A stretch of 64,000 nt of DNA, taken from the sequence record PX393109.1. One strand, 5' to 3'. The notes beneath the pieces were generated by a model. It searched no databases. It saw nothing but the letters and a program-made list of their open reading frames with translations, and was not told where the DNA came from. Origin of the DNA: a phage. The translations under genes were made by a program, and so were the position numbers. Of the stretch, positions 8,626 to 10,823 are shown one piece after another; within the stretch, counting starts at the first letter, position 1, and each line of letters opens with the position of its first letter.

Positions 8626-10569
8626 ATGGAAAAAGTCGCTGCTCTGATAGAGCAAATTAAGAATGCGGCTAATGCATATTATAATGGTGACCAGCCCATT
8701 ATTACGGACGAAGAGTTCGATGCTCTTACCGAGAAATTAGCTGAGCTGGATCCTACTAACCCACTCCTCACTACCCCAGGCTGGGGAGTAACCGAAGCTG
8801 CTGAACATCTGGCTAAGTGCCCACATGGTTCATTCGTGGGTGGTCTTGACCAGGTTAAGATCGGTGCTGTGGAAGAGGGATTTAACTTCCTCCATGGTCA
8901 CGAAGAAGTTAAGGGATTCGTCGCTTCGGCTAAACTGGACGGCATCTCGGTAGTTCTGTATTACGACTACGACGGTAACTTCGTCCGTGGCTTAACTCGT
9001 CACGACGGCGTCACTGGTCTGGACATCACGAAGAGTCTGGAGTGTGCCGAGTTTCCTCGCCAGGTTCCTAAAGGTATTAAAGAAGTCCGCTGCGAAATCG
9101 TTATTCCCGATGATAAGTTCGAGCGGATCAGCCACGAGTACAGTAACCAGCGTAATGCTGCTTCTGGTATTGCTCTGGCTAAATACAGTGATCCTGCATT
9201 AATGGAACTGCTGGATGTGGTTGCATATTCGGTAACTGCATTCTACGAGGATGTGGATCACGAGACATGGATGGATGACTACAACCAGCTGCTACTATGT
9301 TTAAGTAAGGCTGGGTTCAAAGTAGTTAAGTACTTCGTTCTTCCTGCTGGTTATGTCAATACTTGGCTAGTGGCTAACCCACCATCTAAGTTCCGCGAAG
9401 ATCCGGTCTGCAACTACCTGTTGGATGGCGTAGTTCTGGGATCTCTGAATGTTGACTGGGATGAGAATATGCTGGGCAAGAATACTGTCCACTATAAGAT
9501 CAAGTACCAATCAGCATTCTATGACACTACCGTGGTTAAGGTACACTGGGTAGTTAGTGGTTACGGCCGAGTCGTGCCTACTGTTGAGTTCGAGACGGTA
9601 GACATGAGTGGAGTTAATGTAACTTATGCATCCGGATGGAATGCTGAGTACATCAAGAGTGCTGGTATCGGACCTGGTGCTAAGATCAAGATCAGTCGCC
9701 GTAACGAGGTAATTCCTCATATCGAAGAAGTCGTGGAACCCGTCACTGCGGTAATTCCTGAATTCGTCGATGGGGTACGTACTTTCTGGGATGGCGTGCA
9801 TATTCGCATCAAGACTAAGTTAGACCCGATGGTTATTCGTACGATAATCCGTGACTTCGCTCCTAAGGGTCTCGGTGGGACGAATATCAACAAGTTTGCC
9901 GAGCAGGCTAAACTAGATGATGTTGCCATGTTGAACGATATCATCGAGACTGGTCCATCTCATCCAGTATTCAGTATGGTAGAGATGTACGATGGCCCTC
10001 TCCAGCTTACTCGTCAGTCCTTCTTCAATATGAAGGATCGTCCTATCTCTATGGACCACATGCTGACCTGTACCTGGACGGATGGCCTTGGTTATGCAAC
10101 AGGAGTGCGTATTGCCACTGCGGTGACTCGCGACCAGATGATTCGTGTATTGCGTAACAATAGCTTCCACGACATGGTTAATGACGGTATCCAGGTCAAT
10201 ACCGAGGACTACAAAATCTGTAAGGCAATCTATGATGCATGCATGGGTTCCGTAGCTAAGAAGATTGTAGAGAATCAGGAAGTAATCCTGAAGGTGCTGA
10301 ATCTTCCTCTGAACTGGGTGGCCTCTAAGGTAGAGGAACCGCTTCCGGAAGGAAAGTTCAAGATCTGCTTAACTGGTAAGCTTAGTAAGCCTCGTAGCGA
10401 ACTGGTTAACTCCTGGATCAAATATGGCGTAGTCGAAGTCGGTATCGGCGACGCAGAATATCTGGTATGCGATAAACCAAGTCAGTCCAGTAAGTTTAAG
10501 GCTGCCGAAGCTAAGGGTACCAAGATCGTTACCGAAGATCAATTCCGTAAAATCATTGGAGCTGAATAA
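8626..10569 (+). CDS. ligA: NAD-dependent DNA ligase
   Basis: N-terminal YYNGDQPIITDEEFDAL, KLDG adenylation motif, TRHDGVTGLDIT, and a C-terminal BRCT-like segment. Confidence 0.85.
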   Translation: MEKVAALIEQIKNAANAYYNGDQPIITDEEFDALTEKLAELDPTNPLLTTPGWGVTEAAEHLAKCPHGSFVGGLDQVKIGAVEEGFNFLHGHEEVKGFVASAKLDGISVVLYYDYDGNFVRGLTRHDGVTGLDITKSLECAEFPRQVPKGIKEVRCEIVIPDDKFERISHEYSNQRNAASGIALAKYSDPALMELLDVVAYSVTAFYEDVDHETWMDDYNQLLLCLSKAGFKVVKYFVLPAGYVNTWLVANPPSKFREDPVCNYLLDGVVLGSLNVDWDENMLGKNTVHYKIKYQSAFYDTTVVKVHWVVSGYGRVVPTVEFETVDMSGVNVTYASGWNAEYIKSAGIGPGAKIKISRRNEVIPHIEEVVEPVTAVIPEFVDGVRTFWDGVHIRIKTKLDPMVIRTIIRDFAPKGLGGTNINKFAEQAKLDDVAMLNDIIETGPSHPVFSMVEMYDGPLQLTRQSFFNMKDRPISMDHMLTCTWTDGLGYATGVRIATAVTRDQMIRVLRNNSFHDMVNDGIQVNTEDYKICKAIYDACMGSVAKKIVENQEVILKVLNLPLNWVASKVEEPLPEGKFKICLTGKLSKPRSELVNSWIKYGVVEVGIGDAEYLVCDKPSQSSKFKAAEAKGTKIVTEDQFRKIIGAE

Positions 10570-10823
10570 TGTCTGTAACTTTGGAACAGGTTAAAGATGC
10601 ACTGCGATCTGCAGTAGCTGACATCATGATGGTTGATATTCTGGAAGTAACTGAAACTACTACCGGTGAGCAGTTAGGTGCAGATTCTCTGGATGAAGTG
10701 GAGATCATCATGCGTGTTGAAGATGAACTGGGTATGGAAGACAGTATTCCAGACTTCGACTATGATAGCGACGATACTCTGGAGCAGGTGGCAGAAAAGA
10801 TCGTGGCAGTTCTGAACCAGTGA
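10569..10823 (+). CDS. acyl carrier protein-like
   Basis: 84-aa acidic protein with LGADSLDEVEIIMRVEDELG, matching the ACP phosphopantetheine-attachment motif. Confidence 0.65.
   Translation: MSVTLEQVKDALRSAVADIMMVDILEVTETTTGEQLGADSLDEVEIIMRVEDELGMEDSIPDFDYDSDDTLEQVAEKIVAVLNQ

What the first reader, a model, noticed from the sequence alone, without database searches (positions are those of the whole stretch)
10569..10823. Phage-encoded acyl carrier protein-like gene translationally coupled to the ligase
An 84-aa acidic protein with the DSL phosphopantetheine-attachment motif (LGADSLDEVEIIMRVEDELG) starts at the ligase stop codon. Phage ACPs are rare and of unclear role; candidates include a carrier for a modification pathway or interference with host lipid metabolism.
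Basis: partly seen in the sequence, partly recalled or inferred. Interest (0 to 1): 0.45.

Follow-up and report, generated by a model that had tools for sequence, protein, structure and literature searches.

The report
Orphan phage acyl carrier protein
A small, very acidic carrier-protein gene (acyl carrier protein family) really does sit right after the DNA ligase gene of this E. coli phage, but it is one more example of the "orphan" carrier proteins already annotated in many phages, and its role is still unknown.

Summary
ORF 10569-10823 (+) encodes an 84-aa protein (pI 4.05). It has its own GGAG ribosome-binding site, and its ATG overlaps the ligase TAA by one base. It passes Pfam PP-binding (35.2 bits against a cut-off of 20.8). 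Ser40 lies in a DSL motif that aligns with Ser36 of E. coli AcpP. The predicted fold matches ACPs, and dN/dS is 0.16.

It is not an AcpP equivalog. NCBIfam scores are 30-36 bits against cut-offs of 66-106, and two normally hydrophobic core positions are Gly33 and Asp68. It also carries a clade-specific acidic/aromatic loop (DFDYDSDD).

Only about six close relatives exist, all in IME392/EP_H11-like coliphages, and all keep the ligase-ACP junction. Three phages with full-length homologues of this ligase (RP13, Ab1-TPeters, SP-15) have no PP-binding gene in the ORFs just downstream. One- or four-base overlaps are routine in this genome, so the coupling says little about function.

I found no phosphopantetheinyl transferase or acyl-handling enzyme in the parts of the genome I scanned. 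Most of the structural module and a few other genes were not scanned.

My best guess, at low confidence, is that host AcpS primes the protein and that it then acts on host ACP-dependent enzymes.

Verdict: a new member of a known kind, of modest interest.

The parts
10569..10823 (+). CDS for an 84-aa acidic carrier protein of the PP-binding/ACP family (orphan phage ACP)
   Evidence: Pfam PF00550 35.2 bits (gathering cut-off 20.8); PHROG 5934 5e-9; AF2 mean pLDDT 81.4; all listed Foldseek PDB hits are ACPs or ACP-containing complexes (prob 0.94-1.00); dN/dS 0.16.
10686..10688 (+). Codon for Ser40, the predicted 4'-phosphopantetheine attachment serine in the D39-S40-L41 motif
   Evidence: It aligns with Ser36 of E. 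coli AcpP; 104 of 107 representative ACPs have Ser in this column. It is invariant in the clade and in six other phage ACPs. It lies three residues before predicted helix II, 43-54.
10558..10561 (+). GGAG Shine-Dalgarno sequence for the ACP gene, inside the 3' end of the ligase gene
   Evidence: Read directly from the sequence; identical in IME392, EP_H11, L003, L015 and L016.
10567..10571 (+). TAATG stop/start overlap between the ligase and ACP genes
   Evidence: It is conserved in all clade members, but this kind of overlap is generic here: 12 of 57 pairs.
8626..10569 (+). NAD-dependent DNA ligase (LigA-like, 647 aa), the upstream gene in the same apparent operon
   Evidence: Pfam Nlig-Ia, DNA_ligase_aden and DNA_ligase_OB, plus a weak BRCT hit; PHROG 3869 4e-87.
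7788..8561 (+). Family X DNA polymerase, first recognisable enzyme gene of the same apparent transcription unit
   Evidence: Pfam HHH_8 and DNA_pol_B_thumb. A terminator-like site at 7059-7079 lies upstream.
10829..10854 (+). Stable RNA hairpin (11-bp stem, UUCG loop) six bases after the ACP stop codon; no U tract follows
   Evidence: Minimum free energy -16.4 kcal/mol, z-score -4.35. An A-U pair becomes G-C in L003, a compensatory change.
10878..11111 (+). 77-aa gene of unknown function (PHROG 7644), last gene of the unit
   Evidence: PHROG 7644 6e-19. It follows the ACP in all relatives. Its homologues occur in unrelated phages in which the ACP tblastn search found no match.
11160..11186 (+). 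Intrinsic-terminator-like hairpin plus T run, separating the ligase-ACP unit from the DUF7217/glycosyltransferase genes
   Evidence: AGGGAGAC-TTCG-GTCTCCCT followed by TATTTTT.

Best explanation
This is a real, selected gene for a small four-helix carrier protein of the phosphopantetheine-binding (ACP) superfamily. It belongs to the class of 'orphan' ACPs found in early/replication modules of many large phages. Shown here: family membership, the attachment serine, an AcpP-like recognition helix II, purifying selection, and the absence of any recognisable phage phosphopantetheinyl transferase or acyl-handling enzyme in the regions scanned. Inferred: Ser40 is phosphopantetheinylated by the host's AcpS, and the protein then docks through helix II onto host ACP-dependent enzymes (fatty-acid, phospholipid or lipid A synthesis, or other AcpP clients). 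By doing so it diverts or damps host lipid metabolism during infection. It probably does not serve as a bulk replacement for AcpP. Its altered core (Gly33, Asp68) and its clade-specific acidic/aromatic loop suggest it does not sequester acyl chains as AcpP does, and that it has a narrower target. Its position after the ligase reflects shared early expression, not a shared reaction.
For: Family and fold. Serine and helix II: D39-S40-L41-D42, E45, M48, E51, D52 and E53 match the consensus of 107 ACPs and E. coli AcpP residues D35-S36-L37-D38, E41, M44, E47-E49; I60-P61-D62 matches I54-P55-D56. Purifying selection: dN/dS 0.16. No PF01648 PPTase, AMP-binding enzyme, ketosynthase or acyltransferase in window 76-30235 plus six minus-strand ORFs, or in EP_H11 6.4-17.2, 22.2-29.7 and 97.9-111 kb. 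Independence from the neighbouring glycosyltransferase cassette: L003 keeps ligase-ACP but lacks the cassette, and a terminator-like site lies between them. Six other phage ACPs are likewise orphans. Literature: phage ACP function is stated to be unclear (PMC5463345); a phage ACP is predicted to bind host FabZ (PMC13291599); excess ACP, apo more than holo, inhibits E. coli glycerol-3-phosphate acyltransferase and stops growth (PMC3896788). From my own knowledge, not tested here: E. coli AcpS modifies many heterologous type II carrier proteins.
Against: There is no direct evidence of modification or of any partner. Host AcpP is extremely abundant, about 100 uM (PMC8602292), so a simple mimic would be swamped unless it is very highly expressed or specific. 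The protein scores far below every AcpP equivalog cut-off. It lacks the hydrophobic residues at the F28 and I62 positions, so it may be a poor substrate for host FAS enzymes. Invariance of Ser40 within a clade that is 77-99% identical carries little weight. Most of the structural module, three EP_H11 blocks and many ORFans were not excluded as partners. The 2-bp stop/start context and the conserved synteny with the ligase remain compatible with a ligase-linked role.
Confidence: 0.35

Rival explanations
1. It is a private carrier for a phage-encoded pathway whose enzymes are not yet recognisable. The obvious candidate is the thymidine hypermodification or glycosyl decoration of the phage's DNA, with the carrier holding an acyl or aminoacyl donor as a thioester.
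For: EP_H11, 94% identical to this window over the 5-kb region compared, encodes a 5-hmdU DNA kinase domain (PF18723, 5e-34) and a thymidylate-synthase-like enzyme. It also encodes a PIG-L deacetylase, a methyltransferase, a BCCT transporter and several unassignable 300-360-aa proteins. The window itself carries dUTPase, a dCTP deaminase-like gene and a four-gene glycosyltransferase cassette. PMC12686479 lists EP_H11 and IME392 among phages whose DNA polymerase resembles that of the T-hypermodified phages YerA41 and Carin-5, alongside RP13 and SP-15. PMC5977210 lists an 'ACP reductase' gene among candidate SP-15 modification genes.
Against: The ACP lies about 25 kb from the hmdU cluster. It is separated from the glycosyltransferase cassette by a terminator-like site, and it persists in L003, which lacks the cassette. 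tblastn at E<=5 lists no ACP match in RP13, SP-15, YerA41 or Ab1-TPeters. No adenylating or acyl-transfer enzyme was detected. The published hmdU hypermodification schemes cited in PMC12686479 do not involve a carrier protein.
Confidence: 0.12
2. It is an accessory or adaptor protein for the phage's DNA-transaction enzymes (the PolX-LigA repair unit, or other replication proteins). It would bind through its acidic/aromatic loop, with or without the prosthetic group.
For: The stop/start overlap and gene order ligase-ACP are invariant in every clade member, down to 77% protein identity. The gene shares an apparent operon with PolX and ligase. Other orphan phage ACPs also sit beside nucleic-acid enzymes: immediately after RtcB in phiRSL1, between gyrB and gyrA in phiXF1, one gene before a helicase in Vibrio phage helene, and near a primase in Bajun. 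The loop S59-IPDFDYDSDD-T70 and a two-residue insertion are invariant in the clade and atypical for ACPs. AcpP is a known non-catalytic partner of MukB, in apo or holo form (PMC8602292).
Against: The ORFs just downstream of the full-length ligase homologues in RP13, Ab1-TPeters and SP-15 have no PP-binding match. One- or four-base overlaps are the default spacing in this genome. Adjacency to replication genes is expected by chance for any early gene of a large phage, and I did not test it statistically. No ACP-ligase interaction is known.
Confidence: 0.12
3. It is a dispensable passenger gene (a moron) with no important role in infection, kept for now by linkage.
For: Its distribution is very narrow: one 50%-identity cluster among 1.84 billion representatives. 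One relative (L015) has a one-base insertion that disrupts the N-terminus.
Against: dN/dS is 0.16 at dS of about 0.8, and 50 of 84 residues are invariant across the clade. The SD sequence and the junction are conserved. The L015 insertion may be an assembly error in a Logan contig.
Confidence: 0.06

Closest known systems
Orphan phage acyl carrier proteins (PHROG 5934 and PHROG 4154; e.g. those annotated in Xanthomonas phage phiXF1, Ralstonia phage phiRSL1, Brevundimonas phage Bajun, Vibrio phage helene 12B3, Pseudomonas phage pf16)
   Same: A small acidic PP-binding protein with the DSLD motif. It is encoded among early/replication genes with no adjacent PPTase or acyl-handling enzyme. Function is unknown in the literature (PMC5463345, PMC13291599).
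   Different: It is only 26-35% identical to those proteins and was not found by tblastn at 1e-5. It has Gly at the F28-equivalent position, where four of the six have Phe, Leu or Ile. It also has a two-residue insertion after helix II and the DFDYDSDD loop. It is fixed directly behind a LigA gene.
E. coli AcpP (type II fatty-acid synthase ACP; TIGR00517 / NF002148-NF002151)
   Same: Same length class, pI and fold. The helix II recognition motif LGADSLDxVExxM..E[DE]E and the IPD turn are conserved, with 38% identity over 56 residues.
   Different: It scores 30-36 bits against cut-offs of 66-106. F28 is replaced by Gly33, I62 by Asp68 and A59 by Tyr65, and the predicted structure has no separate helix III. 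It is not in a fab gene cluster.
Mitochondrial ACP (NDUFAB1/SDAP), which also acts as a structural subunit of complex I and the Fe-S cluster machinery
   Same: These are among the best sequence matches in the PDB (E of about 2e-7 to 5e-6), with strong similarity over helix II and the following turn. They are a precedent for an ACP used as a protein-binding module rather than only as a soluble carrier.
   Different: I did not look for an LYR-motif partner. The similarity is confined to generic ACP features. They come from a different domain of life.
D-alanyl carrier protein DltC
   Same: A stand-alone PP-binding protein that serves a non-fatty-acid pathway; weak profile hits.
   Different: It scores 20-22 bits against cut-offs of 52-68. 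No DltA-type adenylating enzyme was detected in the scanned parts of the phage.

Membership tests
PP-binding carrier-protein superfamily (Pfam PF00550) | Profile match above the curated gathering score | tested here: met
   35.2 bits against 20.8, E=1.5e-8, covering residues 10-76 of 84.
PP-binding carrier-protein superfamily (Pfam PF00550) | Conserved serine in a (D/H)S(L/I) motif at the N-terminal end of helix II | tested here: met
   D39-S40-L41 aligns with D35-S36-L37 of AcpP; 104 of 107 representatives have Ser there. It is invariant in the clade and in six other phage ACPs.
PP-binding carrier-protein superfamily (Pfam PF00550) | Compact helical-bundle ACP fold | tested here: met
   AF2 mean pLDDT 81.4, pTM 0.68, helices 5-20, 43-54 and 71-82. 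All 50 listed Foldseek PDB hits are ACPs or ACP-containing complexes, prob 0.94-1.00, TM 0.48-0.73. Caveat: the alignment had only five sequences, two of the five models were poor, and helix III is not formed.
PP-binding carrier-protein superfamily (Pfam PF00550) | Covalent 4'-phosphopantetheine on the serine | not testable with these tools
   This needs mass spectrometry or radiolabelling. No phage PPTase was found in the regions scanned, so the host AcpS would have to do it.
AcpP, fatty-acid-synthesis ACP (NCBIfam TIGR00517, NF002148-NF002151) | Score above the curated equivalog/subfamily cut-off | tested here: not met
   27.9-35.6 bits against cut-offs of 66-106.
AcpP, fatty-acid-synthesis ACP (NCBIfam TIGR00517, NF002148-NF002151) | Hydrophobic residues lining the acyl-chain pocket (E. 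coli F28, I62; that these residues line the pocket is from my own knowledge) | tested here: not met
   Gly33 occupies a column that is Leu, Phe or Ile in 91 of 107 ACPs, with no Gly among the six commonest residues listed. Asp68 occupies a column that is mostly Leu, Ile, Phe or Val. The alignment of the helix III region has no gaps between two anchored motifs, but it remains an inference.
AcpP, fatty-acid-synthesis ACP (NCBIfam TIGR00517, NF002148-NF002151) | Acidic helix II recognition surface used by AcpS and FAS enzymes | tested here: met
   D39, D42, E45, E51, D52 and E53 match AcpP D35, D38, E41, E47, E48 and E49.
Orphan phage ACPs (PHROG 5934) | Near full-length profile match | tested here: met
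   E=5e-9, 37.2 bits, residues 6-83 on profile positions 13-89 of 93.
Orphan phage ACPs (PHROG 5934) | No cognate PPTase or acyl-processing enzyme encoded by the phage | tested here: met
   Pfam scans covered window 76-30235, six minus-strand ORFs, and EP_H11 6.4-17.2, 22.2-29.7 and 97.9-111 kb. Not scanned: most of the window's 30-64 kb structural module; EP_H11 87-6315 (SMC-like and gyrase genes), 17.2-22.2 kb (helicase-like gene and the presumed DNA polymerase) and 91.7-97.4 kb. ORFans cannot be excluded as partners.
Functionally coupled ligase + small-subunit pair | Co-occurrence of the two genes wherever the ligase homologue occurs | tested here: not met
   The junction is conserved within the clade. 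The ORFs just downstream of the RP13, Ab1-TPeters and SP-15 ligase homologues have no PP-binding match.
DltC D-alanyl carrier protein | Score above the curated cut-off and presence of a DltA-type ligase | tested here: not met
   20.0-21.6 bits against cut-offs of 52-68. No AMP-binding enzyme was found.

The most novel reading that the evidence does not exclude
Orphan phage ACPs, this one included, may not be lipid-metabolism genes at all. They may be phosphopantetheine-bearing (or merely acidic) partners of nucleic-acid enzymes. Here that would mean the PolX-LigA repair unit, or a carrier step in the thymidine hypermodification of an RP13-like phage. This would explain why such ACPs recur next to ligases, topoisomerases, helicases and primases, and never next to acyl-handling enzymes.
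Probability: 0.1. Interest if true: 0.8.

Novelty: new member of a known kind. Interest (0 to 1): 0.3.

Why it matters
Phage-encoded ACPs have been noted for over a decade without any demonstrated function. This one is in a phage of E. coli, the organism in which AcpP, AcpS and the ACP interactome are best understood, so the question can be addressed experimentally with standard genetics and mass spectrometry. The gene is missing from one public annotation (IME392) and labelled 'hypothetical' in the other (EP_H11), so the annotation can be corrected now. Its departures from AcpP (core residues, acidic/aromatic loop) give concrete mutagenesis targets. In itself, however, it adds one divergent member to a known, unexplained class and does not reveal a new mechanism.

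Tried and rejected
1. I searched for close relatives beyond the clade. The word-indexed search of 5.8 billion proteins gave four. The exhaustive profile search of 1.84 billion representatives gave one cluster, then a gap to generic ACPs at E of about 1e-8. The IMG/VR scan gave none, and the metagenome scan gave only generic ACPs at 50% identity or less over long stretches. The source of the gene could not be traced.

2. I looked for a phage PPTase, adenylating enzyme, ketosynthase or acyltransferase. Pfam scans of concatenated ORFs of window 76-30235, six minus-strand ORFs and three EP_H11 blocks found none.

3. I tested whether the ligase-ACP pairing extends to phages with homologous ligases. 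It does not in RP13, Ab1-TPeters or SP-15.

4. I tested a link to the downstream glycosyltransferase cassette and rejected it. L003 lacks the cassette but keeps the ACP, and a terminator-like site lies between them.

5. I tested a link to the 77-aa downstream gene and rejected it. Its homologues occur in unrelated phages in which the ACP search found nothing.

6. From the sequence alone I guessed that the EP_H11 302-aa protein (7262-8170) might be an ATP-grasp ligase that could load a carrier. Pfam, PHROGs and the PDB sequence search gave no support. The structure tool does not accept sequences from outside the window.

7. I considered recent capture of host acpP and rejected it: identity is only 38% over 56 residues.

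8. A co-fold of ACP with ligase could not be run with the tools available.
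Full report
**1. The observation**

The NAD-dependent ligase ORF (8626..10569) ends with TAA at 10567-10569. The next ATG starts at 10569, so the two genes overlap by one base (TAATG). A GGAG sequence lies at 10558-10561, with seven bases between it and the ATG.

The protein has a pI of 4.05, with 23 acidic and 4 basic residues. The same calculation gives 4.05 for E. coli AcpP.

The ORF is not a chance product. It passes the Pfam PP-binding gathering threshold (35.2 bits against 20.8, E=1.5e-8). It matches PHROG 5934 'acyl carrier protein' almost end to end (5e-9). Against its most distant close homologue (L003, 77% protein identity) it has dS=0.82 and dN=0.13, a ratio of 0.16.

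**2. What the protein is**

*Sequence matches.* Sequence searches against solved structures return only ACPs. The best are mitochondrial ACP subunits and Thermus ACP, at E from 2e-7 downward.

*Predicted fold.* An AlphaFold2 model built from the five-sequence clade alignment has mean pLDDT 81.4. It has helices at 5-20, 43-54 and 71-82. All 50 listed Foldseek PDB matches are ACPs or complexes that contain an ACP, with probability 0.94-1.00 and TM-scores of 0.48-0.73.

*Conserved ACP features.* I aligned the protein with 107 short representatives from the exhaustive profile search and with E. coli AcpP.
- Ser40 falls in the column of AcpP Ser36, which is Ser in 104 of 107.
- D39, L41, D42, E45, M48, E51, D52 and E53 match the near-universal helix II pattern.
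- I60-P61-D62 matches AcpP I54-P55-D56.

*Departures from AcpP.*
- NCBIfam AcpP models score only 28-36 bits against cut-offs of 66-106.
- Gly33 sits in the column of AcpP F28. That column is Leu, Phe or Ile in 91 of 107, and Gly is not among the six commonest residues.
- Asp68 sits in the column of I62, and Tyr65 in that of A59.
- There is a two-residue insertion (E57-D58).
- The stretch IPDFDYDSDD is invariant in the clade and is not seen in six other phage ACPs.

From my own knowledge, F28 and I62 line the acyl pocket of AcpP. Their loss suggests that this protein does not bury acyl chains in the usual way. That step is an inference.

**3. Distribution**

The region is about 94% identical at the DNA level to Escherichia phages vB_EcoM_IME392 and EP_H11. 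The gene is not annotated in IME392 and is 'hypothetical' in EP_H11.

The 5.8-billion-protein search found four clusters, at 77-93% identity. The exhaustive search of 1.84 billion representatives found a single cluster, followed by a gap to generic carrier proteins at E of about 3e-8. IMG/VR and JGI metagenome scans added no relative closer than 50% over long stretches.

The protein is therefore confined to one small coliphage clade, and its origin cannot be traced. It is not a recent copy of host acpP (38% identity over 56 residues).

**4. Context**

*The transcription unit.* A terminator-like site at 7059-7079 lies upstream of the unit and another at 11160-11186 lies downstream. Between them are two small ORFs, PolX (7788-8561), the ligase, the ACP and a 77-aa PHROG 7644 gene (10878-11111). 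A stable hairpin at 10829-10854 follows the ACP stop codon. It folds at -16.4 kcal/mol with a z-score of -4.35, and one stem pair changes from A-U to G-C in L003.

*The ligase junction.* The TAATG junction and the SD sequence are identical in all clade members. The overlap itself carries little information, for two reasons.
- Of 57 adjacent + strand gene pairs in the window, 12 overlap by exactly 1 or 4 nt.
- The closest full-length homologues of this ligase, in RP13, Ab1-TPeters and SP-15 (28-32% identity), are followed by unrelated ORFs with no PP-binding match.

*The glycosyltransferase cassette.* Downstream lie two MptE-like genes, a GT1 and another glycosyltransferase (11908-14597). This cassette is cleanly absent from L003, which keeps ligase-ACP. 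It also lies beyond the terminator-like site. I therefore treat it as independent of the ACP.

**5. Search for partners**

I scanned the following with Pfam:
- the predicted ORFs of window 76-30235, except a few short ORFs from the longest-ORF list;
- six minus-strand ORFs of the window;
- EP_H11 6.4-17.2 kb, 22.2-29.7 kb and 97.9-111 kb, which lie outside the window.

No phosphopantetheinyl transferase, adenylating enzyme, ketosynthase, acyltransferase or thioesterase appeared.

Not scanned:
- most of the window's 30-64 kb structural module;
- EP_H11 87-6315, which holds an SMC-like gene and the annotated gyrase genes;
- EP_H11 17.2-22.2 kb, which holds a helicase-like gene and the presumed DNA polymerase;
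- EP_H11 91.7-97.4 kb.

ORFans cannot be excluded as partners either.

The scans did show that the lineage has a thymidine-hypermodification gene set: a 5-hmdU DNA kinase domain, a thymidylate-synthase-like enzyme, a PIG-L deacetylase, a methyltransferase and, unusually, a BCCT transporter. This fits a paper that groups EP_H11 and IME392 with YerA41, Carin-5, RP13 and SP-15 on the basis of DNA polymerase similarity (PMC12686479).

**6. Other phage ACPs**

Weak tblastn hits led to annotated ACPs in phiXF1, phiRSL1, Bajun, helene 12B3, pf16 and BCSR5. All six are orphans in early/replication regions:
- phiXF1: between gyrB and gyrA;
- phiRSL1: directly after an RtcB ligase;
- helene 12B3: one gene before a helicase;
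- Bajun: near a primase;
- pf16 and BCSR5: among small ORFs.

The literature states that the function of phage ACPs is unclear (PMC5463345). It offers only predictions, such as binding to host FabZ (PMC13291599) or envelope modulation (PMC13573597).

**7. Mechanism**

I commit, at about 0.35, to the following. Host AcpS primes Ser40. The protein then uses its AcpP-like helix II to engage host ACP-dependent enzymes. The effect is to perturb rather than to supply lipid synthesis.

In support, excess ACP is known to inhibit PlsB and to arrest growth (PMC3896788). No phage enzyme that could use a carrier is recognisable.

Against it, AcpP is present at about 100 uM (PMC8602292). A plain mimic would therefore be outcompeted. 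The clade-specific loop and the altered core point instead to a private partner.

The rivals are:
- a carrier in DNA hypermodification (0.12);
- an accessory of the PolX-ligase or replication machinery (0.12);
- a dispensable passenger (0.06).

The remaining probability is for something not yet conceived.

**8. Verdict**

The family assignment is supported. The 'coupled to the ligase' emphasis and the claim of rarity are weakened. This is a divergent new member of the known but unexplained class of orphan phage ACPs. Its main value is that it sits in an experimentally tractable E. coli phage. Interest 0.3.

Noticed in passing
window 10829-10854: A stable hairpin lies six bases after the ACP stop codon: 11-bp stem, UUCG loop, -16.4 kcal/mol, z-score -4.35, with no U tract after it. 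One stem pair changes from A-U to G-C in L003, a compensatory change. It may be an mRNA-stabilising or processing element between the ACP and the next gene.
   Followed up: partly
window 76-1164 (and EP_H11 L007 26582-28096, 29676-31244): The phage encodes pieces of a multisubunit RNA polymerase beta'-like protein. Rpb1 domain 2 matches at 5e-23, with an NMDVDGD catalytic-loop motif, and domains 3-5 lie on a separate upstream gene. An RNase H-like ORF follows at 1164-1694. This is unusual for a phage of 111-116 kb.
   Followed up: partly
window 11908-14597: A four-gene cassette holds two MptE-like/DUF115 proteins (PHROG 'alpha-2,3-sialyltransferase'), a GT1 glycosyltransferase and a PHROG 1962 glycosyltransferase. 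It is present in the window, EP_H11 and L015 but precisely absent from L003, between DUF7217 and the 85-aa ORF. It looks like a mobile or dispensable glycosylation module whose target (DNA, virion or host surface) is unknown.
   Followed up: partly
EP_H11 OP688485 6.4-16 kb (L007), just upstream of the window's equivalent: A thymidine-hypermodification-type cluster. It holds a 5-hmdU DNA kinase helical domain (PF18723, 5e-34), an AAA_28/thymidylate-kinase-like protein, a thymidylate-synthase-like protein, a YfbR-like nucleotidase, a PIG-L deacetylase and a methyltransferase. It also holds a full-length BCCT betaine/carnitine/choline transporter (1.5e-90) and three 300-360-aa proteins with no family. 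A solute transporter inside such a cluster is odd and might supply the modifying group.
   Followed up: partly
window 11112-11203 versus L002 8530-9556 / L003 5346-6357 / L015 6503-7428: This window lacks about 1 kb that all relatives carry between the 77-aa gene and DUF7217. The missing piece holds a PinA-like Lon-protease inhibitor (Inhibitor_I24), a 105-aa ORF and a small zinc-ribbon/Anti-TRAP-like ORF.
   Followed up: partly
window 1956-2480; 22483-23142; 23847-24560; 24523-24873; 25136-25516: Candidate counter-defence or nucleotide-signalling genes: an Acb1-like anti-CBASS phosphodiesterase (1.8e-6, just above the cut-off), a NADAR domain protein (8e-26), an Rv2179c-like 3'-5' exoribonuclease, DUF4326 and a RyR-domain protein.
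   Followed up: no
window 25513-25983 and 26269-26892: dUTPase and a dCTP deaminase-like gene lie side by side. This is consistent with a dCTP to dUTP to dUMP supply line for 5-hmdU synthesis, as discussed for this phage group in PMC12686479.
   Followed up: no
L015 about 6010-6020 (Logan contig SRR22071712_63): A one-base insertion near codon 14 of the ACP gene makes the gene caller pick a downstream start (75 aa, N-terminus MRCD). It is either an assembly error or a natural frameshift variant.
   Followed up: partly
MH719082.1 6800-7051 (IME392); OP688485.1 40053-40307 (EP_H11): The ACP gene is not annotated at all in IME392 and is 'hypothetical protein' in EP_H11. Both public records could be updated.
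   Followed up: yes
window 11204-11911: The DUF7217 protein (1.8e-77) also matches the C-terminal part of PHROG 289 'GTP-binding domain'. It is conserved next to the ACP unit in all relatives. Its function is unknown.
   Followed up: no
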